This document shows positions 8,858 to 30,883 of a stretch of DNA of 64,000 bases, piece after piece; the stretch's first letter is position 1, and every line of letters begins with the position of its first letter. The position numbers and the translations under genes were made by a program. The notes below the pieces were generated by a model. That model made no database searches. It saw nothing but the letters and a program-made list of their open reading frames with translations, and was not told the origin of the DNA. Where the stretch lies: NCBI GenBank assembly GCA_963768615.1, contig CAVYIE010000007.1:653181-717180 (forward strand), in the 5' to 3' direction. The DNA is from Candidatus Eiseniibacteriota bacterium. Its GTDB lineage: Bacteria; Eisenbacteria; RBG-16-71-46; JABDJR01.

Positions 8858-9866
8858 GGAACCGGAGGTCGTTCTCCAGGAAGAGGCGGATGTCCGGAAC
8901 GCCGTGGCGGAGAATCGCGATGCGCTCGACCCCCATTCCCGCCGCGTAGCCCGAGACCTCCTCGGGGTCGTAGCCCGCGTTCCGGAGCACCTGGGGATGC
9001 ACCATGCCCGCGCCCAGGATCTCGATCCAGCCCGTCTGCTTGCACAGCCGGCAGCCCGAGCCCAGGCACTGGAAACAGGTGATGTCCACCTCCGCCCCCG
9101 GTTCCACGAAGGGGAAGTAGGAGGGGCGGAAGCGCACGTCGAGGCTCCGTCCGAACATCTCCCGGGCGAAGGTGGTGAGGGTCCCCCGGAGGTCCTTCAT
9201 GGTCACCCCCCGGTCCACGTAGAGCACCTCCACCTGGTGGAACTCCGAGGAATGGGTGGCGTCCTGGGTCTCGTTCCGGTAGACGCGGCCGGGGAACACC
9301 TTCCGCACCGGCGGAGGCTGGCTCTCCATCACCCGAATCTGCACCGGGGAGGTGTGGGTGCGCAGCACCACCGACTCGGAGATGAAGAAGGTGTCCTGCA
9401 TGTCCCGGGCGGGGTGGCCGGGAGGCATGTTGAGGGCCTGGAAGTTGTGGTAGTCGTCCTCGACGTCCGGCCCCCGGGCCACGGAGAAACCCATACCCCG
9501 GAAGATGTCGAGGATCCGCTCCTCGGTCTGGGTGAGGAGGTGGGCCACTCCCAGGGGGGGCCGGATTCCGGGCAGGGTGGGATCCTCGGCCGGACCCGTC
9601 CGGCCCGCTCCGAGGGCCCGCTCCCGCTCGGCGTAGGCCGACTCCAGGGTCTGCCTGGCCTGGTTGGCCGCCTGCCCCACCGCCCCCCGCTCCTCCGCGG
9701 GCACGTCCTTGAGCCCCCGGAGCACCCCGGTCAGGGGCGACTTCCGAGCCAGGTGCCGGACCCGGGCCGCCTCCAGGGCACCCGGATCCGGGGCCCCGGT
9801 GATCTCGGCCAGGGCCTCCTCCCGGATGCGGTGGATCTGGTTGAGGAGCTCGGCGGCGGCGGGCAC
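8844..9866 (-). CDS. pheS: Phenylalanine--tRNA ligase alpha subunit
   Basis: 340 aa with class II aaRS motifs (...FPGRVYRNETQDATHSSEFHQVEVLYVD...GWIEILGAGMVHPQVL...). Confidence 0.95.
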   Translation of the reverse strand: MPAAAELLNQIHRIREEALAEITGAPDPGALEAARVRHLARKSPLTGVLRGLKDVPAEERGAVGQAANQARQTLESAYAERERALGAGRTGPAEDPTLPGIRPPLGVAHLLTQTEERILDIFRGMGFSVARGPDVEDDYHNFQALNMPPGHPARDMQDTFFISESVVLRTHTSPVQIRVMESQPPPVRKVFPGRVYRNETQDATHSSEFHQVEVLYVDRGVTMKDLRGTLTTFAREMFGRSLDVRFRPSYFPFVEPGAEVDITCFQCLGSGCRLCKQTGWIEILGAGMVHPQVLRNAGYDPEEVSGYAAGMGVERIAILRHGVPDIRLFLENDLRFLTQF

Positions 9867-14354: not shown

Positions 14355-15593
14355 TCAGGCGGCGTTCTTCACGTAGAGCTTCCGCAGTTCCACCCCGTCC
14401 ACGGAGGCCTTCCCGATGACCAGGCCGGTGGGCGAGGCCGCGGGCTGGAGCCGCAGGTACCAGGTCATGCGCTGGCGATTCAGGTCCAGTCGGTCCTGGG
14501 CCTTGAGCTTGCCCTCGGCCAGGGCCTGCACCTGGTCCTCGGGCACCACCAGGTCCTCGAGGAGGGCGCGGGGTCCGGGAGCCAGGGAGGCGGGATCCAG
14601 GGCCACGGCCACGTTCTCCGCCCGCAGCCGGAAGCCTTCGCCGTCCCTGACCACGAAGGCGTGCAGCGCCACCCGCTCCACCCCGCGCCAGGTCGCGCCC
14701 CGGTCGGCCCGGAACCCGCTGGCGTCGAGGTAGCCGGACCCGTCCCGCTCCTGGGTCATGGGTGGGCTCGCGCCCAGGGCCAGGGGAATGACGTCGACGT
14801 CCAGGTCGTCGTTTCCGCTCTCCTGAACGTCGCGGAGGATGGAGTCGAGGTGGTAGCGCGTCCCCTCGGTGCGGCTGAGATCGAAGCGCAGGGTGAGGGG
14901 CGCCGCCCCCCGGTCCCCTTTCACCAGGTCCTCGATGGATGCCTGGCGCAGCCCGGGAACACGAAGGTAGTAGTTCTCGACGATCGCGTTCCGGCCGATC
15001 CAGTGGGGCCAGCTGACCACGTTCACGGCCACGTAGCGGGAGTCGTCGGGGTTGACCAGCGCCGCCAGTCCGCCCGCGGCGGGGGGCGGGTTCCCGGCCC
15101 GGGCCACCACCTGGGCCAGGGACGCCTGCTGGGAATAGGAGCGGGTCATGTGATCCCGCGCCACTCCCACCACCGCCGCCAGCACCGCCAGCACGCCCAG
15201 GAACACGAAGGGGAGCACCACCTTCTGCTTCCGGGAGGGGGTCAGGGAGTGTTCGTGGAGCGCCGAGATGGTGCTCCCCGCCCCTGGCCCCGCCCCCCCG
15301 CCCGCCGCGGGAGAGGCGGCCTTGGCGTGCAGGGCCTCCATGTCGGCGACGTCCTTGACCGTGAGACCGGCGGCGGCGGCCTTCTCCCGGACCGCGGCCA
15401 CCTCCCCGGCGGTCATGGGGTCGGACCGGACCACCGAGTGCATGAAGTTGACCGCGTGGTAGCCCTTGATACCCAGATCCTGGATCAGCTTGCGGGCCTC
15501 GGTCTCCCCGCGCCCCATACCCGCCAGCTCCACCAGGCCCTTGCTGTCGATCCGCACCTCGACCGGATGGGTCTTCACAACCATCGTCATCAC
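14355..15593 (-). CDS. Hypothetical single-pass membrane protein (cytoplasmic N-domain of about 120 aa, one TM, periplasmic C-domain of about 270 aa)
   Basis: 412-aa ORF with ordinary, non-PGR-rich composition. TM segment VVLPFVFLGVLAVLAAVVGVA. No recognisable family. Transcribed divergently from the flippase/GT operon. Confidence 0.6.
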   Translation of the reverse strand: MMTMVVKTHPVEVRIDSKGLVELAGMGRGETEARKLIQDLGIKGYHAVNFMHSVVRSDPMTAGEVAAVREKAAAAGLTVKDVADMEALHAKAASPAAGGGAGPGAGSTISALHEHSLTPSRKQKVVLPFVFLGVLAVLAAVVGVARDHMTRSYSQQASLAQVVARAGNPPPAAGGLAALVNPDDSRYVAVNVVSWPHWIGRNAIVENYYLRVPGLRQASIEDLVKGDRGAAPLTLRFDLSRTEGTRYHLDSILRDVQESGNDDLDVDVIPLALGASPPMTQERDGSGYLDASGFRADRGATWRGVERVALHAFVVRDGEGFRLRAENVAVALDPASLAPGPRALLEDLVVPEDQVQALAEGKLKAQDRLDLNRQRMTWYLRLQPAASPTGLVIGKASVDGVELRKLYVKNAA

Positions 15594-15872: not shown

Positions 15873-17378
15873 GTGAGGCCCAACCCGAGACCCGATCGCC
15901 ACTTGAGCCAGAACAACTCCGAGTTCCTCCGCGGACTGCTCACCCTCACCCTCAGCCGCTACTTCGTCCGGGGCTTGAGCCTGCTCAAGGGCCTGGTGGT
16001 GGCCCGCGTCCTGGGCCCCAGCCTGTACGGGATGCTGGGGATCCTGGCCGTGTTCATGGGCTACAGCGCCTACGCCGACCTCGGCATCTTCGGCGGGCTC
16101 ACCAAGACCCTCCCCGTCCACCTCTCCCGCGAGGAGCGCGAGGAGATGGCCCGCCAGGAGGGAATCGGCTTCACCTCGGTCACCCTCCTCACCGTGCTCT
16201 TCGCGGCGGTGGTCATGGGGGTCATGTGGGAACGGGGGGCGGTGGTGAAGCGCGCCCTCCCCGCCCTGGCCTTCGCCATGATCGCCCAGCAGTTCTTCAA
16301 GTACTGCACGGTGCTGCTCCGGGCCCGGAGCCGGTTCGGCGAGACCGCCTTCGCGTGGAGCTTCCTCCAGATCCTGGACATGCTCTTCGTGCTCGCCCTG
16401 GTCTTCCCCCTCAACCTCACCGGGGTGTTCCTCGGCCAGGGGCTGGCCTTCACCGTGGCCGCGGCGGTCATCGCCCGCCGTAACCGGCTCGTCCCCCGCC
16501 TCATTCTCGACCCCCGCTTCTCCGCCGTGCTCATCCGGGCGGGCATCCCCCTGGTGGTCTCCACCCTCACCTTCCTCCTCCTGCAGACCGTGGACCGCTT
16601 CCTTATCGTGGGTTTCCTCAGCGCGGAGGCCCTGGGCCACTACATGATCGGGGTGTTCTGCGCCAACTTCATCTACTTCATCCCCCAGAGCCTGGGCTAC
16701 GTGCTGTTTCCCAACTTCCGGGAACGGCTGGCCGGCCTCGCCGAGGGCGAGCGCCCGCCGCTCCGGTACATCGAGCTTCCCACCCGGATGCTCTCCTATG
16801 TGCTCCCTCCCTTCACCGCCATGGTGTTCCTGGGCATTCCCGTCATCGGGCTCCTCCTGCCCGCCTACGTGCCGGGGTTGGAGAGCGCCCGCATCCTGGT
16901 CATGGGGACCTTCTTCCTCTCCCTGGTCACCAGCATCACCAGCTTCCTCATCGCCGCCGACCGCCACTGGTCTTTGATGGGGGTGCAGGTGGCGGCGGTG
17001 CTGATGGACTTGGGGCTCAACTACTTCGCCCTCCGGACCGGCCGCGGCATCGAGGGGGTGGCCCTGGCCACCGCCCTCTCCTACGTGTTCTACGCCACCG
17101 CCTCCCTGGCCCTGGCCTACCGCTACCTGCGCTTCCGCTGGGAGGCGATGACGCCCCGCCTGGGCCGGCTCTACGCCCCCTACCTGTACACCCTCGCCGC
17201 CGCGCTCCTGGTGGCCTCCTGGAGCCCCCTCGGGAACCCGGGTCCGGTGATCCTCACCGTGGTCCTGCGCGAGGTCGTCTTCCTGCTCGCCCTGCTCCCG
17301 GGAGTGTGGCTGCTCCAGCGCACCACCGGAGCGGTGGGCGAGGTGGCGGGCATGATCCGGAAGGCGGTGCGGACGTGA
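15873..17378 (+). CDS. Polysaccharide/oligosaccharide flippase, Wzx-like (MOP superfamily)
   Basis: About 500 aa with 12-14 TM helices. The N-terminus ...LLTLTLSRYFVRGLSLLKGLVVARVLGPSLYGMLGIL is typical of Wzx/RfbX-type polysaccharide biosynthesis proteins. Start at GTG 15873 or TTG 15903. Confidence 0.8.
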   Translation: MRPNPRPDRHLSQNNSEFLRGLLTLTLSRYFVRGLSLLKGLVVARVLGPSLYGMLGILAVFMGYSAYADLGIFGGLTKTLPVHLSREEREEMARQEGIGFTSVTLLTVLFAAVVMGVMWERGAVVKRALPALAFAMIAQQFFKYCTVLLRARSRFGETAFAWSFLQILDMLFVLALVFPLNLTGVFLGQGLAFTVAAAVIARRNRLVPRLILDPRFSAVLIRAGIPLVVSTLTFLLLQTVDRFLIVGFLSAEALGHYMIGVFCANFIYFIPQSLGYVLFPNFRERLAGLAEGERPPLRYIELPTRMLSYVLPPFTAMVFLGIPVIGLLLPAYVPGLESARILVMGTFFLSLVTSITSFLIAADRHWSLMGVQVAAVLMDLGLNYFALRTGRGIEGVALATALSYVFYATASLALAYRYLRFRWEAMTPRLGRLYAPYLYTLAAALLVASWSPLGNPGPVILTVVLREVVFLLALLPGVWLLQRTTGAVGEVAGMIRKAVRT

Positions 17379-18607
17379 GCGCCCCCCGCGTGCTCATGGT
17401 CATCCAGCGCTTCCGGCCCACCTTCACCGGGCACGGCATCCAGGTGGAGACCCTGGCCCGGGAGCTGGGCGCCCTGGGCGTCCGCACCGAGATCGTGACC
17501 CGGGCCCTGCCCGGGTCGCCGGAGCGGGAGGACGGTCCGGTGCCGGTGCGCCGCTTCCCCATGACCCCCACCCGGAATCCGGTCCGGCTCTGGTGGGAGC
17601 ACCGCCCGCTCCTGAACTACATCCGCGGCTCCGGGGACCGGTTCGACATCCTGCACGTGCACGGAGCGCCTCCCGGCCTCCCCTACCTGCTCGACGCCGG
17701 CCGCAAGGCGGGGCTTCGGACCGTGGTCACCAGCACCCTGCTCACCGCCGACGATCCCCTCTCCATCAAGGGACGGGGACGGCTGGCCGCGTGGCGGTTC
17801 AAGTCCTTGCGGGGGGCGGACCGGTTCGTGGCCATCTGCCCCGCCCTGCTCGACACCTACCCCGCCGCCGGCATCGACCCCGCCCGGGTCTCCCACATCC
17901 CGGTGGGCGTCTCGGTCCGGCGCTTCCACCCCCCCACCGACCGGGAGGCGGAGGCCGAGGCCCTGGGCTGGCCCCGGGACGTCCCCCGCGCGCTCTTCGT
18001 GGGAGGGGTGCTCCGGCGGAAGGGCGTGGACGTGCTGCTCAGCGCCTGGGAGCGGGTCCTGGCCCGTCTTCCCGAGGCCCGGCTGTACGTGGCCGGGCCC
18101 CTGGACTTCCCCCATGCCGCCGGGCCCGACGCCGAGGCCTTCGCCGAGGCCTGCCGCGAGCGGGCGGGGCGCCCGCCCCTGGCCGGGCGGGTGTTCCTGC
18201 TCGGCACCCGGGACGACACCGCCGCCCTCTACCGGGCCGCCCACGTGTTCGTGTTCCCCTCCCGGGTGGAGGGGTTCCCCAACGTGCTCCTGGAAACCCT
18301 GGCCTCGGCCACCCCGGCGGTGACCGCCCGCATTCCCGGCTCCACCGACGTGAGCGTGCGCGACGGGGAGAACGGCTTCGTGGTTCCCCAGGAGGATCCC
18401 GGGGCCCTGGCCGGCCGCGCGGTGCAGCTCCTCACCGACTCCGCCCTCCGGGACCGCTTCGCCGCCGCCGCCCGGGCCGACGCCGAGGCCCGCTTCGCCT
18501 TCCCGGTGGTGGCCCGCGCCCACCTGGAGCTCTACCGCCGCCTGCTGGACCCGGCCTCGCCGCCTCCGGCCGGCCCCGCGCCGGGAGCGAGCCGTGCCCA
18601 CCGCTGA
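17375..18607 (+). CDS. Glycosyltransferase family 4 (GT-B)
   Basis: The GTG start overlaps the flippase stop (GTGA). Contains ...VFVFPSRVEGFPNVLLETLASATPAV..., the E-x7-E motif of retaining GT4 enzymes. Confidence 0.85.
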   Translation: MSAPRVLMVIQRFRPTFTGHGIQVETLARELGALGVRTEIVTRALPGSPEREDGPVPVRRFPMTPTRNPVRLWWEHRPLLNYIRGSGDRFDILHVHGAPPGLPYLLDAGRKAGLRTVVTSTLLTADDPLSIKGRGRLAAWRFKSLRGADRFVAICPALLDTYPAAGIDPARVSHIPVGVSVRRFHPPTDREAEAEALGWPRDVPRALFVGGVLRRKGVDVLLSAWERVLARLPEARLYVAGPLDFPHAAGPDAEAFAEACRERAGRPPLAGRVFLLGTRDDTAALYRAAHVFVFPSRVEGFPNVLLETLASATPAVTARIPGSTDVSVRDGENGFVVPQEDPGALAGRAVQLLTDSALRDRFAAAARADAEARFAFPVVARAHLELYRRLLDPASPPPAGPAPGASRAHR

Positions 18608-21152
18608 GGCCGGCGGCGGACTCGGCGCCCTGCTTCGGTTCGCGCTCGCGGCCGGGGTATGGGTCCTTCCCGGTTTCGCTCTCCACCGCCTGGTCCATCG
18701 CCGCCGGGACGGGGATCCGCTCCTCGCCGTGGCCTTCGCCCCCGCCCTGGCCGCCTTCGCCACCACCGTGGCCGCCTTCCTCGCCCTGGCCACGGGCATT
18801 CCCGTGGTCCGCTTTCCCTGGGTGCTGCTGGTCCTGGCCGCGGCGGCGGCGGCGATCCTGGTGCTGGTGCGCTCCCGGCCCCCGGCCGGGGAACTCCCGG
18901 ACGCCCCTGGAGCCGCGGCCCGCTGGGTGGGTTTCCTGTCGGTGGCCCTGCTCGTTCTCGGCGGGGCCTGGGTGGGGGGAACGCTGCGGTTCACCACCGA
19001 CGCGCCCGACCACGTGGGCACCCTGCGGGAGATCCTGGCCTCGGGCCGGTACTTCCCCACCGAGGCCTTCCACCTCGGGGCGGGGATCCTCGGCGCCGAC
19101 CCCCGCAAGGGGCTCCTCCACCCGGTCTACGCCGCCCTGAGCCGGCTCGCCGGCCTGGACCCGGCCGCGTTCTGGCGCTGGCTGCCCGCCCTCACCGGCG
19201 CCTTCCCCTTCCTGGCCGGATACGGCTTCCTGCGGTCGGCGGGGTATCGGGCCGGCTGGGCCCTGGCCGGAGCCTGGGTCCTGACCCTGAGCTGGAACGG
19301 GGGTCCGGGGGGCGACCTCCTGGGCATCTCCGGCTATCCCAACCAGGTCGGGGCGGCCCTGTTCTGGCTCGGTTTCGGGGCCTCGATCGGCGCCCTCCGG
19401 CGGCCGGGGACGGGCGCGGTGGCCGCCGCGGCCATGGTGCTCGCGGCCGCGGTCACCGTCCATCCCATGTACGTGGTCTTCGTGGCCCTGCTCGGCGGGA
19501 TGCTCCTGCTCTACGCCCTGGGCCCCGCCCGGCCCCGGGGCCCCGCGCTCCGGGTGGTGGTGATCCTGGGCGCGGCCCTGGCCGTGGTCCTGGTCCCCTA
19601 CCTCCTCTATCGCTATACCCAGTACCGCCCCGGGAACCCCATTCACACCGCCGTCCAGGGGATGCTCTTCCTGGGCGACCGCACCTTCATCGCCGATCCC
19701 GGCCTCCTCTGGCGCCACCTGGGCTGGGCGGGGCTGGTGGGCTTCCCCGCCGCGGCGGTGGTGTTCCTGCCCCGCTGGCGTCGCGGAGCGGCCCCGTTCC
19801 TGATCGCGCTCGCCCTGGTGGCCATGGCCCTCCTCACCCTGAACCCGCTCTTCGTCCCCGTCCTCCAGGAGCGGCTCACCTACCTGGTGTTCCGGAGCCT
19901 GTGGATCCTCCCCGCCGGGCTGGCCGCGGGGGCGGCCCTGGGCCTGCTCGCCGCCGGGGAACGCGGGGCGCTGGGGGCGGGAGACTTCGCACCCGGGGCC
20001 CCGGCTTCCCCGGCCCCCGGGCCCGGGCGCCCGGCCCGGGCGGGGGCGCTCCTGGTCGCAGCCGCGGTGATCCTCCCCGCGGCCCTCTCGCTCCCCCGCT
20101 GGACGGAGCAGGCCCCGGCCCGGGACGGCATCGCGAACCCCCGGATCTGGCGGGCCGACCTGGCCGCGGTGGACGCCGCCCTTCCTCCACGCTCCACCGT
20201 GCTCTCGGACCCGGTGACGTCCTACCTGCTCCCCGCCTTCACCACCCAGCGCACCGTGGCCCCCTACGACCAGCACTCCTCCCCCAACGACTCCCTGGCC
20301 CTGGGCCGGATCCTGGCCGCCCGCGACGTGCTGAGCCCGGGGGTGCCGCTCCTCACCGCCTGGGAGACCGCCCGCCGCTGGGGCGCGGACTACGTGCTGG
20401 TCAACACCGCCTTTCCCGGGCCGGTCCGCACCGACTACTGGAGCTTCGACCGGAACGCGCTCCGGGCCCGGGAGCGCGCCTTCCGGGGCTCGCCGCTCTT
20501 CCGGCCGCTCCTGGACCGGGACGGGTTCGCGCTGTTCGCGGTGGCCCCCACCCTTCCCGATTCGCTGCCGCCCGAGGACCTGCGGAGCCCGGTCCTCACC
20601 GTGCCCGCGCCCCCGGGACCTCCGATCCTGGACCGCGAGGGCCTGGCCCTGGTCGGTGCCTCGGCCGGCCCCGACACCCTGAGCTGCCGGGACACCCTGG
20701 CCGTGCGGCTCACCTGGACCCCGACCCGGGCCGGGCTCCCTCCCGAACCGCTCCGGGCCTCGCTGCGACTGGACGCCCTCGACGCCCCCGGCCGAGGCCG
20801 TCCGGCGGAGAAGCTCCTCCGCAAGCTCGCCGCCGCCGCCACCGGGACCCGGTATCGCGCCCGCACCGACTGGATCCCTTCCGGGGGCCGTTTGGCCTTC
20901 GACCGCTGGACCCCGGGGCGGGCGATCACGGACACGGTGCGGATCCGCCCTCCCTGCGCCCTGGCCCCCGGGCGCTACGCGGTCACGGTGACGGTGAACC
21001 GCATCCCCCACATGCCCAACTACCGCCTGCGGGACTACCTGAGCAACCGGGACCTCTACGCCGGCCCCGCGGTGGACACGGTGACCGTGGTCCCGCGCCC
21101 GCTGACCGCCGCTAGCCGGCGGCGGTGTCCGCCGGCGACGAGGCCTCGGTGA
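18594..21152 (+). CDS. Polytopic membrane protein, putative GT-C-type glycosyltransferase with a C-terminal periplasmic domain (paralog of 6800..8857)
   Basis: 852 aa with more than 11 TM helices. The loop motif TTDAPDHVGTLREILASGRYFPTEAFHLGAG is close to the E. coli ArnT sequence [22 protein letters not shown]. A roughly 300-aa soluble C-terminus is present. The start overlaps the upstream GT4 stop. Confidence 0.65.
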   Translation: MPTAEAGGGLGALLRFALAAGVWVLPGFALHRLVHRRRDGDPLLAVAFAPALAAFATTVAAFLALATGIPVVRFPWVLLVLAAAAAAILVLVRSRPPAGELPDAPGAAARWVGFLSVALLVLGGAWVGGTLRFTTDAPDHVGTLREILASGRYFPTEAFHLGAGILGADPRKGLLHPVYAALSRLAGLDPAAFWRWLPALTGAFPFLAGYGFLRSAGYRAGWALAGAWVLTLSWNGGPGGDLLGISGYPNQVGAALFWLGFGASIGALRRPGTGAVAAAAMVLAAAVTVHPMYVVFVALLGGMLLLYALGPARPRGPALRVVVILGAALAVVLVPYLLYRYTQYRPGNPIHTAVQGMLFLGDRTFIADPGLLWRHLGWAGLVGFPAAAVVFLPRWRRGAAPFLIALALVAMALLTLNPLFVPVLQERLTYLVFRSLWILPAGLAAGAALGLLAAGERGALGAGDFAPGAPASPAPGPGRPARAGALLVAAAVILPAALSLPRWTEQAPARDGIANPRIWRADLAAVDAALPPRSTVLSDPVTSYLLPAFTTQRTVAPYDQHSSPNDSLALGRILAARDVLSPGVPLLTAWETARRWGADYVLVNTAFPGPVRTDYWSFDRNALRARERAFRGSPLFRPLLDRDGFALFAVAPTLPDSLPPEDLRSPVLTVPAPPGPPILDREGLALVGASAGPDTLSCRDTLAVRLTWTPTRAGLPPEPLRASLRLDALDAPGRGRPAEKLLRKLAAAATGTRYRARTDWIPSGGRLAFDRWTPGRAITDTVRIRPPCALAPGRYAVTVTVNRIPHMPNYRLRDYLSNRDLYAGPAVDTVTVVPRPLTAASRRRCPPATRPR

Positions 21153-22425
21153 CGGCGAGGCGGGCCAGGAGCAGATAGAGCAGGACGGCCCCGAAGAGCG
21201 GCAGCGAGACCAGGAGGTTGAACACCCGGCCGTGCCCGCCGCCCCCCACCCGGTAGTAGGCGTCGAAGAGGAAGAGGCCGCCCCAGGAGGCGGTCCAGAC
21301 CAGGAACCCGCCCACCGGCGCACCGGACCGCGCCCCCAGCCAGGCCGCGGCCACCGCGAAGGGCAGGGCCAGTCCCACCAGGTGATGGAGCCAGACGTTG
21401 GAGGCCCCCGAGAACACCCACACCGTGGCCAGGGCCAGGGCCAGCGGCTCGCCCCACTCCCCGCCGCGGCGGCGGAGCCGGTCGGCCAGGACCAGGGTGA
21501 CCGCCATCCAGGCCAGGAGCACCGCCCGGGCCGCCCAGGCCGTCGCGGTGGGAATGGGCAGTACCGACCAGTGGCGGGGGCTGGTGGCGTCCATCCACCG
21601 GAGGATGAGGCCGGTGACCGACTGGTTGGAGGAGAGGGTGGTGCTCAGTTTCACGTAGTCGAGCATGAGGTGGAGGTAGCGGAGGTGGGCCTCCCAGCCC
21701 GCCGCGGCCAGGCTCACCCCGAGGAGCAGCGCTCCGCCGAGCGCGAAGGCGGCCAGCGCCCGCCACCGGCGCATGACCAGGAGGTAGGGCACGAAGAGGA
21801 TGGGAAAGAGCTTCATCCCGGTCACGAAGGCCAGCCACAGCCCGGCCTGGATGTCCCGCCGGCGCCACAGCGCGTGGGCGAAGAGCACGATCAGGAGCAG
21901 CACCGGCACGCTGGCCTGCCCGGCGCGGATGGCCTGGAGGAACGGGGTGGTGTGGATGAGGAGCGCGAAGGAGCCGGCGGCGGCGGGCCAGCCCCATCCG
22001 GGGAGGGACCTGGCGAGGAGGAAGAGGGCGGCCAGGGCCAGGATCCAGTTCACCAGGTAGACCACGACCAGGGCCCGGTACGGGGAGAGGCCGGCCACGG
22101 GGACGTAGAGGAGGCCGACCCAGGGCGGATAGATGTAGTAGCTGGTGTCCTCGATGCCCGCCCCGGCGCCGATGGCGGCGAATCGGCTCCCGGGGAAGCG
22201 CCGGGTGGTGAGCCCGGTCATGATGTCGGTGAAGTAGAGGGCATCGGGCTCGCGCTCCATGAGCACCCGCGCGGCGATGTAGTACTGGGCGAAGTCCTTG
22301 GGGACCGGCTTGGAGGGGCCGGGAAACTCGCGCAGGAAGACCATCAGGCCCTGCAGGGCCAGGACCGACGCCACCAGGAGCAGCAGGGGCCGGCCCAGGG
22401 CCGGCGTCCGGACTCGAGCGTGCAT
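21112..22425 (-). CDS. DUF2029/GT87-like membrane glycosyltransferase (PimE-like, polyprenyl-phosphate-sugar dependent)
   Basis: True start MHARVRTPALGRPLLLLVASVLALQ... at ATG 22425. An N-terminal TM is followed by KDFAQYYIAARVLMEREPDALYF, the characteristic loop-1 motif of the family. Roughly 10 TM helices. The upstream part of ORF 21112..22719 is an artefact. Confidence 0.6.
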   Translation of the reverse strand: MHARVRTPALGRPLLLLVASVLALQGLMVFLREFPGPSKPVPKDFAQYYIAARVLMEREPDALYFTDIMTGLTTRRFPGSRFAAIGAGAGIEDTSYYIYPPWVGLLYVPVAGLSPYRALVVVYLVNWILALAALFLLARSLPGWGWPAAAGSFALLIHTTPFLQAIRAGQASVPVLLLIVLFAHALWRRRDIQAGLWLAFVTGMKLFPILFVPYLLVMRRWRALAAFALGGALLLGVSLAAAGWEAHLRYLHLMLDYVKLSTTLSSNQSVTGLILRWMDATSPRHWSVLPIPTATAWAARAVLLAWMAVTLVLADRLRRRGGEWGEPLALALATVWVFSGASNVWLHHLVGLALPFAVAAAWLGARSGAPVGGFLVWTASWGGLFLFDAYYRVGGGGHGRVFNLLVSLPLFGAVLLYLLLARLAVTEASSPADTAAG

Positions 22426-22648
22426 GAAGGGACACTCCGTTCCGGGGGACTGGGGGCGGGCCGCCCCGCCGGCGAGCCCGGGCCCGCGCCGGCGCCGTTC
22501 GAGGTCCCGTTTATAGGCGAGGGACGGGCCGCGGTCAACCGGCGGCGTGGGGCCGGGGCGGCGCGAACCCGCCCGGAGCGATGGCTGCGCGTACCGGCGG
22601 CATCCCCGGCACGGGGTCATTTTTCCCCGTCCCCGGCCTCTGGCGCTC

Positions 22649-22657
22649 TGGTAGAAT
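22649..22657 (+). promoter_or_regulatory. Extended -10 element (TGgTAGAAT) about 10 nt upstream of the gmd ATG
   Basis: TG at 22649-22650 and TAGAAT at 22652-22657; the gmd start is at 22667. Implies a very short or leaderless 5' UTR. Confidence 0.3.
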
Positions 22658-22666
22658 ATTCGCCCT

Positions 22667-23692
22667 ATGAACGACTCCCCCCCCTCGCCACGCAAGAAGG
22701 CGCTGATCACCGGCGTCACCGGACAGGACGGCTCCTACCTCGCCGAGCTGCTGCTGGAGAAGGGCTACGACGTCCACGGCGTGGTACGCCGGGTGAGCGT
22801 GTTCAACCGGCAGCGGATCGACGCCCTCTATCCCGGGCCCCAGGCCTCGGGATCCCACTTCCAGCTCTACTACGGGGACCTGGCCGACTCCAACGTCCTC
22901 ATCTCCCTGGTGGCCAAGCTCCAGCCGGACGAGATCTACCACCTCGCCGCCCAGAGCCACGTGCGGGTGAGCTTCGACATCCCGGAGTACACCGCCAACG
23001 TCACCGCCATCGGCACCCTGAGGATGCTGGAGGCCATCCGCCTGGAGAGCCCGAAGTCCAAGCTCTACCAGGCCTCCTCCTCGGAGATGTTCGGGGCCGC
23101 GCCGCCGCCCCAGAACGAGAAGACCCCCTTCGAGCCCCAGAGCCCCTACGGGGCGGCCAAGGTCTTCGCCCACCACGTGGGCAAGAACTACCGCGAGGGG
23201 TACGGGTTGTGGGTGTGCTCGGGGATCCTCTTCAACCACGAGTCCCCCCGCCGGGGCGAGGCTTTCGTCTCCCGCAAGATCACCCGCTCGGTGGCCCGCA
23301 TCGCCAACGGGCTCCAGGACTACCTCTACCTGGGGAACCTGGACGCCAAACGCGACTGGGGCTACGCTCCCGAGTACGTGGAGGCGATGTGGCGAATGGT
23401 GCAAATCGGGGAGCCCGACGACTTCGTGATCGCCACCGGCGAGGCCCACACCGTACGCGAGTTCCTCATCGAGGCCTTCAACCACGTGAACCTCGACTGG
23501 GAGAAGTACGTGCGCATCGACAAGCGCTACCTCCGCCCCTCCGACGTCTGGCACCTGGAGGGGGACGCCTCCAAGGCGGAGAAGGCACTGGGCTGGAAGC
23601 CCGCCACCACCTTCAAGGACCTGGTCCGGATCATGATGGAGGCCGATCTCCGCGCCGCCCGCAAGGAGAGAGCGGCCAAGGAGACGGACTGA
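22667..23692 (+). CDS. gmd: GDP-mannose 4,6-dehydratase
   Basis: 341 aa [28 protein letters not shown]...[37 protein letters not shown]. Confidence 0.95.
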
Positions 23693-23699
23693 GCCGCCG

Positions 23700-24650
23700 G
23701 TGATGGCCTCCGGATTCTGGCGCGAGCGGACGGTGCTGATCACCGGGGGCGGAGGCTTCCTGGGCTCCCACCTGGTCCGCGCCCTGCGCGCCCACGGGGT
23801 GGACGCCGCCCGCCTCCGCGCCCCCTCCTCCTCCGAGGCCGATCTCCGGGACCGGGCCGCCTGCGCCCGGGCGGTGCGCGGGGCCCAGGTGGTGATCCAC
23901 GCCGCGGGCCGCATCGGGGGTATCGGGCTCAACCGCGAACGCCCCGGTGAGCTCTTCTTCGAGAACGCCCTCATGGGCATCCAGCTCATGGACGAGGCCC
24001 GGCGGGCCGGGGTGGAGCGCTTCGTGACCGTGGGCACCACCTGCGAGTACCCCAAGATCACCCCCGTCCCCTTCCGGGAGGACGCCCTCTGGGACGGCTA
24101 CCCGGACGAGGTCACCGGCCCCTACGGCCTGGCCAAGAAGATGCTCCTGGTCCAGGGGCGGACCTACCGGGACCAGTACGGCTTCCGCTCCGTTCACCTC
24201 ATTCCCACCAACCTCTACGGGCCCGGGGACCATTTCGACGAGGTCCACGGCCACGTCATCCCCTCCCTCATCAAGCGGTTCTCCGAGGCCGCCGACCGGG
24301 GCGACGAGGCGGTGACGGTGTGGGGCACGGGCCGGGCCACCCGGGAGTTCCTCTACGTGGAGGATGCGGCGCGGGGCATCGTGCTCGCCGCCGAGCGCTA
24401 CGACCACCCCGACCCGGTGAACCTGGGCTCGGGGATCGAGACCCCCATCCGCGACCTGGCCGCCCGCATCGCCGCCCTCACCGGGTTCGGCGGGGAGATC
24501 CGCTGGGACGCGGACAAACCCGACGGCCAGCCCCGGCGGAGCCTGGACGTCTCCCGGGCGCGGGAGGCCTTCGGGTTCACCGCCGAAACCGGCCTGGACC
24601 AGGGCCTGGCCCGCACCGTGGACTGGTACCGGGAGCACCGGAATCAATGA
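23700..24650 (+). CDS. fcl: GDP-L-fucose synthase (GDP-4-keto-6-deoxy-D-mannose 3,5-epimerase/4-reductase)
   Basis: 316 aa VLITGGGGFLGSHLV...YGLAKKMLLVQGRTYRDQYGFRSVHLIPTNLYGPGDHFD. Lies immediately after gmd. Confidence 0.9.
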   Translation: MMASGFWRERTVLITGGGGFLGSHLVRALRAHGVDAARLRAPSSSEADLRDRAACARAVRGAQVVIHAAGRIGGIGLNRERPGELFFENALMGIQLMDEARRAGVERFVTVGTTCEYPKITPVPFREDALWDGYPDEVTGPYGLAKKMLLVQGRTYRDQYGFRSVHLIPTNLYGPGDHFDEVHGHVIPSLIKRFSEAADRGDEAVTVWGTGRATREFLYVEDAARGIVLAAERYDHPDPVNLGSGIETPIRDLAARIAALTGFGGEIRWDADKPDGQPRRSLDVSRAREAFGFTAETGLDQGLARTVDWYREHRNQ

Positions 24651-25432
24651 GCGACACCCACTCCCGCCGCCCCACCCTGACCCTGGTCATCCCCACCCGG
24701 GACGAGAAGGGGAACATCGAGCCCGCGGTGGCCCGCTGCCCGGACTTCGGCACCGAGGTGGAGCTCCTCTTCGTGGACGGCAACTCCACCGATGGGACCC
24801 TGGAGGAGCTGGCCCGGGTGGCCGCGGCCTATCCCGACCGGCGGATCAGCTACTTCACCCAGGAGGGGAAGGGCAAGCGGATCGCGGTGTGGCAGGGCTT
24901 CGAGCGGGCCCGGGGAGAGGTGGTGATGATCCTGGACGGGGACATTACCGTGCCCCCGGAGGAGCTTCCCGCCCTCTACGAGATCCTGACCGGCGGGCCC
25001 CACCTCTTCGTCAACGCCACCCGGTTCCGGTACCCCATGGAGCCGGGAGCGATGCAGCTCCCCAACCACCTGGCCAACCGGTTCTTCGCCCTCTTCGTGA
25101 GCCTGATCACCGGACAGTGGTTCTCGGACACCCTCTGCGGCACCAAGGGGCTCTGGAAGAGCGCCTTCCTGCGGCTCCGGGACGAGGGGTTCCTGGCCGG
25201 CATGGACCGCTACGGGGATCACGAGCTCATCCTGGGGGCCTGGAACCTGGGCATGACCATCGTGGAGGCGCCGGTCCACTACCGGGCCCGCCTCTACGGA
25301 GAGGCCAAGATCGCCAACCAGAAGTTCTCCGGGGGAACCGCGTTCCTGAAGCTGGACCTGGCCGCGCTCAAACATCGATTCCTGGGCCGGCGCCGCCGCC
25401 GGACCTTCGCGCCCCTGACCCCGACCGACTGA
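24647..25432 (+). CDS. Glycosyltransferase family 2, DPM1-like polyprenyl-phosphate glycosyltransferase
   Basis: ATG at 24647 overlaps the fcl stop (ATGA). 261 aa LTLVIPTRDEKGNIEPAV...ELLFVDGNSTDGT...ILDGDITVPPEELP (DxD). Confidence 0.85.
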   Translation: MSDTHSRRPTLTLVIPTRDEKGNIEPAVARCPDFGTEVELLFVDGNSTDGTLEELARVAAAYPDRRISYFTQEGKGKRIAVWQGFERARGEVVMILDGDITVPPEELPALYEILTGGPHLFVNATRFRYPMEPGAMQLPNHLANRFFALFVSLITGQWFSDTLCGTKGLWKSAFLRLRDEGFLAGMDRYGDHELILGAWNLGMTIVEAPVHYRARLYGEAKIANQKFSGGTAFLKLDLAALKHRFLGRRRRRTFAPLTPTD

Positions 25433-25503: not shown

Positions 25504-27046
25504 ATGTCCGATTCACGCCCCGCCGCCGAAACCACCCGCCGCGCCCCCCTGGAGATGGATCCCGAGACCTTCCGCGCCCTGGGCCGGGCCGCGGTGGACC
25601 GGATCGCCGACTTCCTGGCCGCCATGCCCCGGGGCCCGGTGACCCGGGGGGAGTCCCCCAGCGCGGTCCGCGAGGCGCTGGGCACCGGCGCCCTCCCCGC
25701 CGAGGGGACGCCGCCGGATGCGCTCCTGGAGGACACCGCGCGGCTTCTGTTCGAGCACTCGCTCTTCAACGGACACCCCCGCTTCCTGGGCTACATCACC
25801 GCCTCGGCGGCGCCGATCGGGGCCCTGGGGGACCTCCTGGCCGCGGCGGTGAACCCCAACGCCGGGGCCTCGATCCTCTCCCCCGCCGCCACCGAGATCG
25901 AAGCCCAGACCGTGCGCTGGATCGCCGAGCTGATCGGATTCCCCGCCCGGGGCGCGGGCGGGCTCATGGTGAGCGGGGGGAACCTGGCCAACATCGTCCC
26001 CTTCCTGGCCGCCCGCCGGGCCAAGGCGGACTGGGACCTGCGCTCCGAGGGGGTCGCCGCCGGCCCCCCCATGACCTGCTACGCCTCCGAGCGCACCCAC
26101 ACCTGGATCCAGAAGGCGGCCGACCTGGCCGGACTGGGCACCGAGGCGATACGGTGGATCCGGGTCGACCGCGACCACCGCATGGAGCCGGACGGCCCTG
26201 GCCGAGGCGGTGGCGCGGGACCGGGCGGCGGGGGCCCGTCCCTTCCTGGTGGTGGGGGCCGGGGGCACGGTGGAGGTGGGGGCGGTGGACCCCCTGCCCA
26301 CCCTGGCCGCCTTCTGCCGGGAGCAGGACCTGTGGTTCCACGTGGACGGGGCCTACGGCGCCATCGCGGCCGCGCTCCCCGAGGCCCCGGCCGACCTGAA
26401 GGGGCTGGCCGAGGCCGACTCGGTGGCGGTGGACCCCCACAAGTGGCTCTACGCCCCCCTGGAGGCGGGCTGCGTGCTCGTCCGCGATCCCGCCACCCTC
26501 CTGGACGCGTTCAGCTTCCACCCCGAGTACTACCGGATGGAGGTGCCCGGCCAGGAGCCGCGGCTGAACTACTTCGACTTCGGGCTCCAGAACTCGCGGG
26601 GGTTCCGGGCGCTCAAGGTGTGGCTGGCCCTGCGGCAGGTCGGCCGGGCCGGGTACCAGCGCATGCTCCGGGAGGACATCGAGCTGGCCGAACGCCTGTT
26701 CCGGAACGCCGCCGACCACCCCGAGCTGGAGGCGTTCACCCGGAACCTCTCCATCACCACCTTCCGCTTCGTGCCCCGGGATCTGCGCGGGCGTGCGGCG
26801 GAGCCGCCGGTCGCGGACTACCTGAACGGGCTCAACCAGGAGCTCCTGGACCGGCTCCAGGCCGGGGGCGAGGTGTTCGTCTCCAACGCGGTGCTGGAGG
26901 AGCGCTACGCCCTCCGCTCCTGCGTGGTCAACTTCCGCACCTCGGGAGGGGACATGGACGCCATTCCGGGGATCGTGGTCCGGATCGGGCGGGAGGTCGA
27001 CCGGGAGCGGCGTCCGGCCTCGCTGCGGGCGGACCGTTCCCGGTGA
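25504..27046 (+). CDS. Group II PLP-dependent decarboxylase (aromatic-L-amino-acid/glutamate decarboxylase family), with an apparent +1 frameshift near 26194
   Basis: The N-terminal half is in the 24889..27612 frame (MSDSRPAAETTRR...HPRFLGYITASAAPIGALGDLL...RVDRDHRMEPD). The C-terminal half is ORF 26210..27046 (HVDGAYGAIAAALPE...DSVAVDPHKWLYAPLEAGCVLVRD, with the PLP lysine in DPHKW). The frames join if one G is removed from gacGgcc at 26191-26196. Confidence 0.75.
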
Positions 27047-30805: not shown

Positions 30806-30883
30806 GGCACCTCCTCGTTCCCGGCGCGGGGAAAATTCCCCCCCCCCGGACAATTTGAGATTACCACCGATACCGGAATCGGG

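What the first reader, a model, noticed from the sequence alone, without database searches (positions are those of the whole stretch)
18594..21152. Paralogous polytopic membrane proteins carry an ArnT/PMT-like catalytic-loop motif after about 4-5 N-terminal TM helices
Both large membrane proteins (6800..8857 and 18594..21152) contain a loop sequence similar to the ArnT REMLASG and STT3 DPYF loop-1 motifs: TTDAPDHVGTLREILASGRYFPTE in one and SDAWFHTAVVFEMARAGVPPQDPYF in the other. In both, the motif sits after several predicted TM helices rather than after TM1 as in ArnT, PMT and STT3.

This points to either an N-terminal membrane extension on a GT-C fold or an undescribed GT-C-like family. The acidic residue pattern also differs: DA/DAP instead of the DE of ArnT and PMT.
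Basis: partly seen in the sequence, partly recalled or inferred. Interest (0 to 1): 0.6.

Follow-up and report, generated by a model that had tools for sequence, protein, structure and literature searches.

The report
Uncharacterised GT-C membrane glycosyltransferase pair
Two large membrane proteins in this window are distant relatives of each other. Both are predicted to be lipid-sugar-dependent (GT-C) glycosyltransferases from a large unstudied family, whose catalytic loop follows four or five extra membrane helices instead of one.

Summary
Both ORFs and both motifs are at the stated places, and the motif follows 4 (protein A, 18594..21152) or 5 (protein B, 6800..8857) hydrophobic helices.

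The motif is conserved: Asp136 in 138/139 and His140 in 136/139 aligned relatives.

A and B show no BLASTP similarity, but their family profiles align over 571 columns (98.9%).

AlphaFold2 models are confident (pLDDT 90 and 89, pTM 0.92). Every significant Foldseek PDB hit is a GT-C_A enzyme: STT3, PglB, AglB, DPY19, ArnT or AftA.

- Asp136 caps the first juxtamembrane helix, where GT-C_A enzymes carry their catalytic Asp.
- D-x8-REILASG matches E. coli ArnT D-x8-REMLASG in spacing.
- Arg434 aligns with DPY19 Arg471, which binds the donor phosphate.

Neither protein hits Pfam. Both are remote relatives of DUF6541, within a superfamily of about 5,000 clusters.

Four genomes conserve the neighbourhood: MOP flippase, GT4, A, B, GT87, Gmd, Fcl-like reductase and a polyprenyl-phosphate-sugar-synthase-like GT2.

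Best reading: periplasm-facing, polyprenyl-phosphate-sugar-dependent glycosyltransferases of a surface-glycan pathway. This is a new variant of a known kind. Emb proteins already set a precedent for extra helices before the catalytic loop. Substrates are unknown.

The parts
18594..21152 (+). Protein A (852 aa): long-form GT-C_A-fold membrane glycosyltransferase of a DUF6541-related superfamily
   Evidence: ORF. No Pfam or NCBIfam hit. AF2 pLDDT 90.4, pTM 0.92. Top 19 Foldseek PDB hits are all GT-C_A.
18621..18866 (+). N-terminal extension of A: three TM helices (aa 10-34, 42-66, 71-91) that precede the helix equivalent to canonical GT-C TM1; contains the conserved Pro26-Gly27
   Evidence: AF2 helices. 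Positive-inside count of 17 K+R inside versus 6 outside supports N-terminus-out topology. P26 is 95% and G27 93% conserved.
18912..18974 (+). TM4 of A (aa 107-127), inferred equivalent of canonical GT-C TM1
   Evidence: hhalign registers against ArnT: A 107/111/114 aligns with ArnT 2/7/7 and A 128 with ArnT 23. Weak statistics but a consistent register.
18993..19064 (+). Catalytic-loop motif TTDAPDHVGTLREILASGRYFPTE (aa 134-157). Asp136 (18999..19001) N-caps juxtamembrane helix 137-150; His140 is four residues later
   Evidence: Translation. D in 138/139 and H in 136/139. Helix start. Same spacing as E. coli ArnT D31...REMLASG. GT-C_A rule of a catalytic Asp at the tip of JM1 (PMC12041299).
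19461..19463 (+). His290 codon, the most conserved residue after Asp136, in the 3-residue periplasmic turn between TM8 and TM9
   Evidence: 99% conserved in 142 sequences. Invariant across the A+B alignment. Topology.
19845..19913 (+). Conserved amphipathic external helix PLFVPVLQERLTYLVFRSLWILP (aa 418-440) carrying Arg434, the inferred donor-phosphate ligand
   Evidence: Translation. R434 is 99% conserved in long forms. The A6 profile aligns YLVFR434 with CeDPY19 FLIMR471 (E 0.0035). Arg471 binds the Dol-P-Man phosphate and R471A/Q abolish activity (PMC10154233).
20106..20549 (+). Periplasmic alpha/beta domain of A (aa ~505-652), with conserved SDPxTS (Asp539) and DQHSSPND motifs; probable 'luminal dome' equivalent
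   Evidence: AF2 secondary structure. D539 96% and D566 83% conserved. The DPY19 alignment runs into this domain. The dome is described as conserved in GT-Cs (PMC10154233).
20556..21098 (+). C-terminal beta-sandwich of A (aa ~655-835), absent from B; possible carbohydrate- or lipid-binding module with many conserved Arg/Lys
   Evidence: AF2 strands. Weak Foldseek hits to the Wzt carbohydrate-binding domain, NPC2, GM2 activator and GH3 C-terminal domains (E 0.02-0.07). R725, K740, R743, R755 and W772 are >=92% conserved.
6800..8857 (+). Protein B (685 aa): short-form remote homologue of A with the same fold and no C-terminal beta-sandwich
   Evidence: ORF. hhalign of A versus B families 98.9%. 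AF2 pLDDT 88.9, pTM 0.92. Top 21 Foldseek hits are all GT-C_A.
7286..7360 (+). Motif of B, SDAWFHTAVVFEMARAGVPPQDPYF (aa 163-187); Asp164 and His168 align with Asp136 and His140 of A
   Evidence: Translation. Alignments.
17306..18607 (+). GT4 (GT-B fold) glycosyltransferase; its last 14 nt overlap the start of A
   Evidence: Pfam Glyco_trans_1_4 E 1.3e-30 and Glycos_transf_1 E 1.1e-28. A GT4 also sits immediately upstream of A orthologues in L002, L005 and L076.
5610..6803 (+). Second GT4 glycosyltransferase; overlaps the start of B by 4 nt (ATGA)
   Evidence: Pfam. Only distantly related to the other GT4 (27% over 115 aa).
15900..17378 (+). MOP/Wzx-type flippase (start codon uncertain)
   Evidence: Pfam Polysacc_synt E 9e-10. 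8 hydrophobic segments. 490-aa orthologues sit directly upstream of GT4-A in L002, L005 and L076.
21112..22719 (-). GT87 (PimE-type) GT-C mannosyltransferase-family protein. The real start is probably the Met at aa 99 of this ORF. Its 3' end overlaps A's by 41 nt, convergent
   Evidence: Pfam GT87 E 2.6e-26. Sequence. Conserved next to A or B in L002, L003, L005 and L076.
22667..23692 (+). GDP-mannose 4,6-dehydratase (Gmd)
   Evidence: NCBIfam TIGR01472, 479.6 bits against a cutoff of 415.
23700..24650 (+). GDP-L-fucose-synthase-like epimerase/reductase
   Evidence: NCBIfam GDPFucSynFcl E 3.6e-74, 250 bits, below the equivalog cutoff of 500.
24650..25432 (+). GT2 resembling polyprenyl-phosphate sugar synthases (start approximate)
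   Evidence: Best NCBIfam hits are AglJ, PgfS, ArnC and dolichyl-phosphate hexose transferase, all below cutoffs. Conserved after Gmd and the Fcl-like gene in L002, L005 and L076.
14355..15593 (-). Conserved 412-aa single-pass membrane protein of unknown function, divergent from the flippase
   Evidence: No Pfam or NCBIfam hit. One TM at about aa 125-145. 413-421-aa counterparts occupy the same position in L002, L005 and L076.

Best explanation
Proteins A and B are periplasm-facing, inverting-type GT-C_A glycosyltransferases that take a sugar from a polyprenyl-phosphate-linked donor and add it to a cell-surface glycan or glycolipid.

Proposed pathway:
1. The cytoplasmic GT4 enzymes build a lipid-linked or glycolipid acceptor from nucleotide sugars.
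2. Gmd and the Fcl-like reductase supply a GDP-6-deoxyhexose, alongside GDP-mannose.
3. The GT2 loads a sugar onto polyprenyl phosphate.
4. The MOP flippase moves lipid-linked material across the membrane.
5. Three GT-C enzymes (A, B and GT87) each add residues on the outer face.

Within A:
- Asp136, at the N-cap of the first juxtamembrane helix, acts as the general base on the acceptor hydroxyl.
- Arg434, probably with His290, His176 and the DPRKG segment, holds the leaving phosphate.
- The alpha/beta periplasmic domain covers the site.
- The extra C-terminal beta-sandwich binds the acceptor polymer.

The three (A) or four (B) additional N-terminal helices are a family-specific addition in front of the canonical seven-helix core. 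Their role is unknown.

Shown here: the fold, motif conservation, topology bias and conserved gene neighbourhood. Inferred: catalytic roles, donor type, acceptor and stereochemistry.
For: **Fold:** AF2 pLDDT 90.4 and 88.9, pTM 0.92. All Foldseek PDB hits with E<=1e-3 are GT-C_A enzymes: STT3, DPY19, PglB, AglB, AftA and ArnT. TM-score normalised to the target reaches 0.59.

**Catalytic Asp:**
- D136/D164 is 99% conserved and sits at the start of helix 137-150 / 164-178.
- PMC12041299 states that all GT-CA enzymes carry the essential Asp at the tip of JM1.
- The spacing matches ArnT.
- hhalign of A6 against an ArnT alignment gives E 8.5e-4 with D136=D31.

**Phosphate ligand:** the only PDB sequence hit below E 0.01 is DPY19, aligning R434 with R471. 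Arg471 binds the Dol-P-Man phosphate (PMC10154233).

**Topology:** the K+R count is 17 versus 6, placing the motif, H290, the R434 helix and the C-terminal domains outside.

**Context:** MOP flippase, GT4, A, GT87, Gmd, Fcl-like and polyprenyl-P-sugar-synthase-like GT2 are conserved in the window and in L002/L003, L005 and L076. B lies in the same cluster in L003 and L076. This matches the synthase + flippase + GT-C logic of three-component systems (PMC11127046). It also resembles the GT4 + GT87 + GT-C logic of mycobacterial PIM/LM synthesis (PMC12041525).
Against: - No experiment exists for any family member; DUF6541 returns zero papers.
- Sequence links to characterised GT-Cs are weak (hhalign probability 24%; HMMER E 0.0035).
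- The GT2 and the Fcl-like protein score below their NCBIfam equivalog cutoffs.
- The flippase is of the Wzx type usually tied to diphosphate-linked oligosaccharides. The best structural neighbours include oligosaccharyltransferases, so a diphosphate-linked donor is not excluded.
- Distant relatives such as Kribbella P0043 lack any glycan-gene neighbourhood.
Confidence: 0.6

Rival explanations
1. A and/or B are oligosaccharyltransferase- or ligase/polymerase-like enzymes. They would take a flipped polyprenyl-diphosphate-linked oligosaccharide, built by the GT4s and exported by the Wzx-type flippase, and transfer it en bloc to a protein, lipid or growing polymer. In this cluster they would replace Wzy/WaaL/PglB-type enzymes.
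For: - The best Foldseek hits for A are STT3 subunits (E 3.4e-7). PglB and AglB are also hit for A and/or B, and DPY19 is a peptide-modifying enzyme.
- A Wzx-type flippase lies in the same operon as GT4-A.
- No Wzy, WaaL or initiating phosphoglycosyltransferase was recognised among the annotated cluster genes.
- A large C-terminal periplasmic domain is present, as in OSTs.
Against: - The WWDxG motif that defines STT3/PglB/AglB is absent from A and B, and no DxD lies in the membrane domain.
- No Pfam STT3 hit.
- The sequence-level signals point to monophosphate-sugar users: the ArnT EL1 motif and DPY19 Arg471.
- A polyprenyl-P-sugar-synthase-like GT2 and a GT87 are conserved in the cluster.
- MOP-superfamily flippases also serve monophosphate donors (PMC11127046).
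Confidence: 0.2
2. A and B are protein O- or C-glycosyltransferases of the PMT/TMTC/DPY19 type. They would mannosylate or fucosylate secreted or envelope proteins from a polyprenyl-phosphate sugar.
For: - DPY19 is the top structural hit for B and the only PDB sequence hit for the family profile.
- The ArnT/PMT-like juxtamembrane motif is present.
- The context supplies GDP-mannose-derived sugars and a polyprenyl-P-sugar-synthase-like GT2.
Against: - No PMT, PMT_2, MIR or TPR domains.
- The DE dipeptide of PMTs is replaced by DA.
- The conserved neighbourhood of two GT4s, a flippase and GT87 looks like polymer or glycolipid assembly rather than a stand-alone protein-glycosylation pair.
- A's beta-sandwich weakly resembles carbohydrate- or lipid-binding modules rather than peptide-binding ones.
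Confidence: 0.12
3. A and B keep the GT-C fold but are not transferases. They would be, for example, scaffolds or lipid-linked-sugar carriers, as PIGU is a GT-C-like non-enzyme.
For: The PimE paper notes that PIGU shares the fold without being a glycosyltransferase (PMC12041525). B's Foldseek list includes a GPI-transamidase subunit at E 0.21.
Against: Conservation is near-invariant at exactly the positions used for catalysis and phosphate binding in active GT-Cs: D136 99%, H140 98%, H290 99%, R434 99%. All strong structural hits are active enzymes.
Confidence: 0.05

Closest known systems
DPY19 tryptophan C-mannosyltransferase (GT98; CeDPY19, PDB 7ZLG/7ZLH/7ZLI)
   Same: - GT-C_A fold; it is the top Foldseek hit for B (E 1.3e-7) and a strong hit for A.
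- It is the only solved protein that the family profile finds by sequence (E 0.0035), aligning Arg434 with the phosphate-binding Arg471 (PMC10154233).
- It has a C-terminal luminal/periplasmic alpha/beta domain after the last TM.
- No obvious metal-binding DxD.
   Different: - DPY19 is eukaryotic, has 13 TMs and carries its catalytic Glu71 in the loop after TM1.
- A and B have an Asp-x3-His signature after 4-5 TMs.
- About 10% identity.
- The DPY19 acceptor is a WxxW peptide, and nothing here suggests that.
ArnT (GT83; E. coli b2257, C. metallidurans PDB 5EZM/5F15) and the PMT_2 family
   Same: - GT-C_A fold; the highest target-normalised TM-score (0.59 for A, 0.51 for B).
- Juxtamembrane helix 1 motif with identical spacing: D-x3-[Y/H]-x4-RE[MI]LASG.
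- The profile register puts D136 on ArnT D31.
- Uses a polyprenyl-monophosphate sugar donor made by a GT2 (ArnC), a type that the cluster's GT2 resembles.
   Different: - ArnT's motif follows TM1; here 3-4 extra helices come first.
- DE becomes DA.
- No Pfam PMT_2 hit.
- ArnT lacks A's beta-sandwich.
- The profile similarity is weak (probability 24%).
Pfam DUF6541 (PF20176), uncharacterised, with hits here from Kribbella, Pilimelia and metagenomes
   Same: - Remote but clear homology: hhalign 99.45%, E 4e-22 over 599 columns for A's family; 97.2%, E 4.5e-11 for B's.
- Same N-terminal helices with the LPG motif and the same Asp-x3-His.
- The model covers the whole membrane domain, including the extra helices.
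   Different: - A and B do not reach any Pfam score for DUF6541, even at E<=1.
- About 20% identity.
- DUF6541 has no assigned function or literature.
- The Kribbella relative lacks the glycan-gene context.
Mycobacterial Emb arabinosyltransferases (GT53; EmbB PDB 7BX8/6X0O) and the PimE/Mpt lipoglycan GT-Cs
   Same: - GT-C enzymes using polyprenyl-phosphate sugars on the periplasmic face.
- EmbB's catalytic DDx lies in periplasmic loop 2, after TMH3, so extra helices precede the catalytic loop (PMC7305291).
- Emb and AftD carry C-terminal carbohydrate-binding modules, as A appears to (PMC11127046).
- The GT4 + GT87 + further GT-C pathway logic is shared (PMC12041525).
   Different: - Emb inserts a periplasmic domain between TMH1 and TMH2 and has 15 TMs; A and B have a compact 3-4-helix bundle and no such domain.
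- Emb proteins are weak Foldseek hits for B only (E 0.05-0.2).
- The organisms here are not Actinobacteria-like in gene order.
Three-component periplasmic glycosylation systems (GtrA/GtrB/GtrC; GT136 ORF12 system)
   Same: The cluster holds the three functional classes: a polyprenyl-phosphate sugar-synthase-like GT2, a MOP-superfamily flippase and GT-C enzyme(s), one of them with a CBM-like C-terminal domain (PMC11127046).
   Different: Here three different GT-Cs (A, B, GT87) and one or two GT4s share one cluster. That suggests assembly of a glycan rather than decoration by a single side-chain residue. No sequence relation to GtrC or GT136 was tested.

Membership tests
GT-C_A structural class | Polytopic membrane domain whose fold matches solved GT-C_A enzymes | tested here: met
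   Foldseek versus PDB. For A, the top 19 hits are all GT-C_A (E 3.4e-7 to 1.6e-3, probability 1.00). For B, the top 21 are all GT-C_A. The models are confident (pTM 0.92).
GT-C_A structural class | Essential Asp/Glu at the tip of juxtamembrane helix 1, in the first external loop of the core module | tested here: met
   D136 immediately precedes helix 137-150, and D164 starts helix 164-178. It is 99% conserved. The loop is predicted outside. The rule is stated in PMC12041299. Catalytic necessity was not tested.
GT-C_A structural class | The catalytic loop directly follows the first TM helix of the protein | tested here: not met
   4 helices precede it in A and 5 in B, and 4-5 do so in 129/138 relatives. 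This feature is typical rather than absolute: EmbB has its motif after TMH3 (PMC7305291).
GT-C_A structural class | Residue-level superposition of the seven-helix core plus JM1/JM2 on a solved member | not testable with these tools
Oligosaccharyltransferases STT3/PglB/AglB (GT66) | WWDxG motif in the C-terminal domain and a DxD/ExD metal site in the membrane domain | tested here: not met
   A regex search finds no WWD or W.D[YWF]G in A or B. The only D.D tripeptides are at aa 39 (cytoplasmic loop) and 641 in A, and 640 in B. No Pfam STT3 hit.
ArnT / PMT_2 (GT83, GT39) | Significant match to the PMT_2/PMT family profile, with a DE dipeptide in loop 1 | tested here: not met
   No Pfam hit at E<=1. 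hhalign against an ArnT alignment gives only 24% probability. The dipeptide is DA. A local motif resemblance is present.
Pfam DUF6541 (PF20176) | Score above the Pfam gathering threshold (29 bits) | tested here: not met
   A and B give no DUF6541 hit at E<=1. 13 of 53 distant relatives do.
Pfam DUF6541 (PF20176) | Profile-level homology and shared architecture (superfamily membership) | tested here: met
   hhalign gives A1 versus DUF6541 members 99.45%, E 4e-22, 599 columns, and A2 97.2%, E 4.5e-11. The LPG and D-x3-H signatures are shared.
Three-component periplasmic glycosylation system | Co-located polyprenyl-phosphate sugar synthase, flippase and GT-C | tested here: inconclusive
   All three gene classes are present and syntenic in four genomes. 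However, the GT2 is below every equivalog cutoff, and the flippase type does not discriminate mono- from diphosphate carriers.
Wzy / WaaL / SEDS-type polymerases and ligases | Fold match to the diphospholipid-sugar-utilising polymerase/ligase families | tested here: not met
   No such structure appears among the hits with E<=1e-3 for either model.

The most novel reading that the evidence does not exclude
The DUF6541-like superfamily (about 5,000 sequence clusters) would be a distinct, uncharacterised branch of GT-C_A. Its conserved 4-5-helix N-terminal module, with an invariant Pro-Gly, would be a functional part of the enzyme, for example a second lipid-binding or partner-docking site. A and B, together with GT87, would assemble a previously unknown lipoglycan-like, 6-deoxyhexose- or mannose-containing envelope polymer in a poorly studied high-GC lineage. 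This would be a non-actinobacterial analogue of the PIM/LM pathway. Alternatively, A would act as a new type of en-bloc glycan transferase replacing Wzy or WaaL.
Probability: 0.2. Interest if true: 0.7.

Novelty: new variant of a known kind. Interest (0 to 1): 0.42.

Why it matters
GT-C enzymes build and decorate cell envelopes, and they include drug targets (Emb, ArnT) and glycoengineering tools (PglB).

This analysis gives a fold, a catalytic-residue hypothesis (Asp136, His140, His290, Arg434) and a pathway context to a large family with no annotation: 5,067 clusters at 50% identity, 561 of them at E<=1e-30. It also links that family to Pfam DUF6541.

It further shows that the rule 'catalytic loop after TM1', used to recognise GT-Cs from sequence, fails for a whole superfamily. 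That bears on automated annotation.

The conserved cluster offers a testable route to an unknown surface glycan. It holds three different GT-Cs, GT4s, a flippase, a GDP-6-deoxyhexose branch and a polyprenyl-P-sugar-synthase-like GT2.

The fold, the chemistry and the idea of extra N-terminal helices all have precedents. This extends a known kind rather than revealing a new principle.

Tried and rejected
1. Direct BLASTP of A against B found no significant match. Recent paralogy is rejected; remote homology was then shown by profiles.
2. Pfam and NCBIfam on A and B returned nothing, apart from a sub-threshold DUF6541-unrelated DUF6798 hit in B.
3. The shallow family profiles A1 and A2 against PDB sequences gave only noise. 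The 143-sequence profile found DPY19.
5. hhalign against a single ArnT sequence was not significant (E 0.07-0.5). An ArnT alignment built from 19 genomes improved this only to E 8.5e-4, probability 24%. I use it as register evidence only.
6. I tested whether the GT4+GT-C pairs arose by duplication of a two-gene module. This is rejected: the two GT4s share only generic similarity (27% over 115 aa).
7. OST membership is rejected for lack of WWDxG.
8. Wzy/WaaL-type polymerase or ligase is rejected on fold.
9. The exact-sequence look-up of A's own contig returned nothing, and cluster names were empty. The source organism stays unidentified. Only distant B-like homologues carry names: Candidatus Krumholzibacteria and Candidatus Eisenbacteria MAGs.
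10. A literature search for DUF6541 found zero papers.

Full report
**1. Observation**

The window is 72% G+C. The ORF 18594..21152 (+) encodes an 852-aa protein (A). The ORF from the ATG at 6800 to 8857 (+) encodes a 685-aa protein (B). The quoted peptides are encoded at 18993..19064 (A, aa 134-157) and 7286..7360 (B, aa 163-187).

Hydropathy and the AlphaFold2 secondary structure agree on the helix count before the motif:
- A has four long hydrophobic helices before it: 10-34, 42-66, 71-91 and 107-127.
- B has five: 24-37, 42-65, 72-96, 101-122 and 136-153.

The factual part of the finding is therefore correct.

**2. Are A and B related, and is the motif conserved?**

BLASTP between A and B finds nothing (E 0.13).

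Each protein has only about a dozen close relatives among 5.8 billion clustered proteins, none with a Pfam domain. The two family alignments nevertheless match each other: hhalign probability 98.9%, E 2.6e-17, over 571 collinear columns. The two motifs are superposed in that alignment. A and B are thus ancient homologues (about 18-20% identity), not recent paralogues.

An exhaustive profile search of 1.84 billion representatives shows the superfamily is large. It has 5,067 clusters at E<=1e-3 and 561 at E<=1e-30, in a long form (about 850 aa, like A) and a short form (about 660 aa, like B).

In a 143-sequence alignment the near-invariant positions are:

| Residue (A numbering) | Conservation |
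|---|---|
| Pro26 / Gly27 | 95% / 93% |
| Asp136 | 99% (138/139) |
| His140 | 98% (136/139) |
| Pro155 | 95% |
| His176 | 96% |
| His290 | 99% |
| Asp539 | 96% |
| Arg434 (long forms only) | 99% |

Four or five hydrophobic segments precede the Asp in 129 of 138 sequences. The motif and its unusual position are family properties, not chance.

**3. Fold**

AlphaFold2 was run on 52-53-sequence alignments. It gave confident models: A pLDDT 90.4 and B 88.9, both pTM 0.92.

Foldseek against the PDB returned only GT-C_A enzymes among significant hits:
- **A:** STT3 of yeast and human OST, CeDPY19, PglB and ArnT. E values run from 3.4e-7 to 1.6e-3, and the target-normalised TM-score reaches 0.59.
- **B:** CeDPY19, STT3, AftA, PglB, AglB and ArnT.

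No Wzy, WaaL or SEDS structure appears.

A's extra C-terminal beta-sandwich (about aa 655-835) gives weak hits to the Wzt carbohydrate-binding domain, NPC2, GM2 activator and GH3 C-terminal domains (E 0.02-0.07). It carries many conserved Arg/Lys residues. I read it as a possible acceptor-binding module; this is inference.

**4. Where the motif sits in the fold**

Published structures state that GT-C_A enzymes share a core of TM1-7 plus two juxtamembrane helices between TM1 and TM2. They also state that all carry the essential Asp at the tip of JM1 (PMC12041299; PMC12041525).

In the models, Asp136 immediately precedes helix 137-150 and Asp164 starts helix 164-178.

I retrieved the real E. coli ArnT sequence. 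It reads [23 protein letters not shown], against A's LRFTTD-APDH-VGTL-REILASG-RY. The Asp, the +4 aromatic/His and the +9 RE[MI]LASG fall in the same register.

Profile comparisons with ArnT are statistically weak but consistent:
- Against single sequences, E is 0.07-0.5.
- Against a 19-genome ArnT alignment, E is 8.5e-4 and probability 24%, with A 128-351 aligned to ArnT 23-235.
- Three of four comparisons place Asp136 (or B's Asp164) on ArnT Asp31, and A's fourth helix on ArnT TM1.

A positive-inside count (17 K+R in inside loops against 6 in outside short loops) supports a specific topology. The N-terminus is outside, and the motif loop, His290, the 418-440 helix and the C-terminal domains are all periplasmic.

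**5. A second functional residue**

The 143-sequence profile finds exactly one solved protein below E 0.01: the C-mannosyltransferase DPY19 (7ZLG, E 0.0035). It aligns A's Y430-L-V-F-R434 with DPY19 F467-L-I-M-R471 and continues into the start of the luminal domain.

[quoted passage not shown] Arg434 is 99% conserved in long forms.

This supports a lipid-phosphate-sugar donor. It also supports the alpha/beta periplasmic domain being the 'luminal dome' described for GT-Cs.

**6. Relation to catalogued families**

A and B hit no Pfam or NCBIfam model.

Distant relatives found with the joint profile carry Pfam DUF6541 (13 of 53). A few weakly match PTPS_related, DUF2298, DUF6077 or DUF6798.

hhalign of A's family against DUF6541 members gives 99.45% (E 4e-22, 599 columns). 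B's family gives 97.2% (E 4.5e-11) over the N-terminal helices and motif. The DUF6541 model spans the N-terminal helices.

The family is therefore a remote, unmodelled branch of a DUF6541-like superfamily. No literature exists for it.

OST membership is excluded by the absence of WWDxG. PMT/ArnT family membership is not met at profile level, and the DE dipeptide is DA.

**7. Genomic context**

- **A's operon.** A starts 14 nt inside the end of a GT4 gene (17306..18607), which follows a MOP/Wzx-type flippase (about 15900..17378).
- **Downstream of A.** A GT87 (PimE-family GT-C) gene lies convergent (21112..22719, -). It is followed by Gmd (TIGR01472 above cutoff), a GDP-fucose-synthase-like reductase, and a GT2. 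The GT2's best matches are polyprenyl/dolichyl-phosphate sugar synthases (AglJ, PgfS, ArnC), all below cutoffs.
- **B's operon.** B overlaps a second GT4 (5610..6803) by 4 nt. That pair sits between pheT and pheS.

The same set recurs in three other assemblies at 45-61% identity:
- Order: unknown 412-421-aa single-pass protein, flippase, GT4, A, GT87, Gmd, reductase, GT2.
- In two of the three assemblies, B lies inside the cluster, next to GT87.
- In P0009's genome, GT4 genes and a sulfotransferase-like gene flank the A-type gene.
- A Krumholzibacteria B-like gene is flanked by GT4s.
- A Kribbella relative has no such context.

The two GT4s in the window are only generically similar, so the GT4+GT-C pairs are not a recent tandem-module duplication.

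**8. Mechanism proposed**

The context matches two known logics. One is the synthase + flippase + GT-C arrangement of periplasmic three-component glycosylation systems (PMC11127046). The other is the GT4 + GT87 + further GT-C arrangement of mycobacterial PIM/lipomannan synthesis (PMC12041525).

I therefore propose that A and B are periplasm-facing transferases using a polyprenyl-phosphate sugar to extend or decorate a surface glycan or glycolipid. The sugar would be mannose or a GDP-mannose-derived 6-deoxyhexose. Asp136 would act as base and Arg434, with His290 and perhaps His176 and Lys172, as phosphate ligands.

- **Shown:** fold, conservation, topology bias and synteny.
- **Inferred:** donor, acceptor, catalytic roles and the role of the N-terminal helices.

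Rivals:
- An OST-, ligase- or polymerase-like enzyme using a diphosphate-linked oligosaccharide. The STT3 hits, the Wzx flippase and the absence of any recognised Wzy/WaaL favour it. The missing WWDxG and the ArnT/DPY19 signals argue against it.
- A protein O- or C-glycosyltransferase.
- A non-catalytic GT-C-like scaffold. This is unlikely given conservation at the catalytic positions.

**9. Novelty and verdict**

The surprise is limited for three reasons. New GT-C families are reported regularly (for example GT136, PMC11127046). The family is linked to an existing Pfam DUF. And EmbB already shows a catalytic loop placed after TMH3 (PMC7305291).

I rate it a new variant of a known kind, with moderate interest. 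Its value lies in a concrete catalytic hypothesis for a family of about 5,000 clusters, and in a conserved cluster of three GT-Cs that is ready for experiment.

Noticed in passing
window 26928..30853 (-): One CheB_methylest domain is split between two overlapping ORFs: 30197..30853 carries profile positions 1-136, and 26928..30581 carries 134-172 followed by CheR, PAS, HATPase and receiver domains. In related contigs the orthologue is a single 1405-aa gene. This suggests a frameshift or assembly error near 30200-30580.
   Followed up: partly
window 26210..27046 (+): This ORF matches only the C-terminal part (profile 191-360 of 375) of the pyridoxal-dependent decarboxylase domain. The N-terminal half is probably upstream in another frame, or the gene is truncated.
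   Followed up: no
window 3028..9866: The GT4+B pair (5610..8857, + strand) lies between pheT (3028..5532, -) and pheS (8844..9866, -), splitting the usual pheST operon. B's 3' end overlaps pheS's by 14 nt. B also abuts pheS in L005, whereas in L003 and L076 B sits next to GT87 instead.
   Followed up: partly
window 14355..15593 (-): A 412-aa protein with one predicted TM helix (about aa 125-145) and no Pfam or NCBIfam match. Counterparts of 413-421 aa occupy the same position, divergent from the flippase, in L002, L005 and L076. It is probably part of the same pathway.
   Followed up: partly
window 21112..21152: The 3' ends of A (+) and the GT87 gene (-) overlap by 41 nt in convergent orientation. 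The GT87 ORF as listed is probably over-extended at its 5' end: a likely start is the Met at aa 99, just before its first hydrophobic helix.
   Followed up: no
L076 3246..5105 (-) and L001 7808..8728 (-): Related clusters carry extra genes absent from the window. L076 has an asparagine-synthase-like amidotransferase next to the flippase, and L001 has a sulfotransferase-like gene between two GT4 genes beside the A-type gene. These hint at variable glycan modifications.
   Followed up: no
window 18669..18674 (A aa 26-27) and 6971..6976 (B aa 58-59): A Pro-Gly pair in the middle of the first conserved N-terminal helix is 95%/93% conserved across the superfamily, including DUF6541 members. That is as strongly conserved as most residues near the predicted active site. 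No explanation was found.
   Followed up: partly
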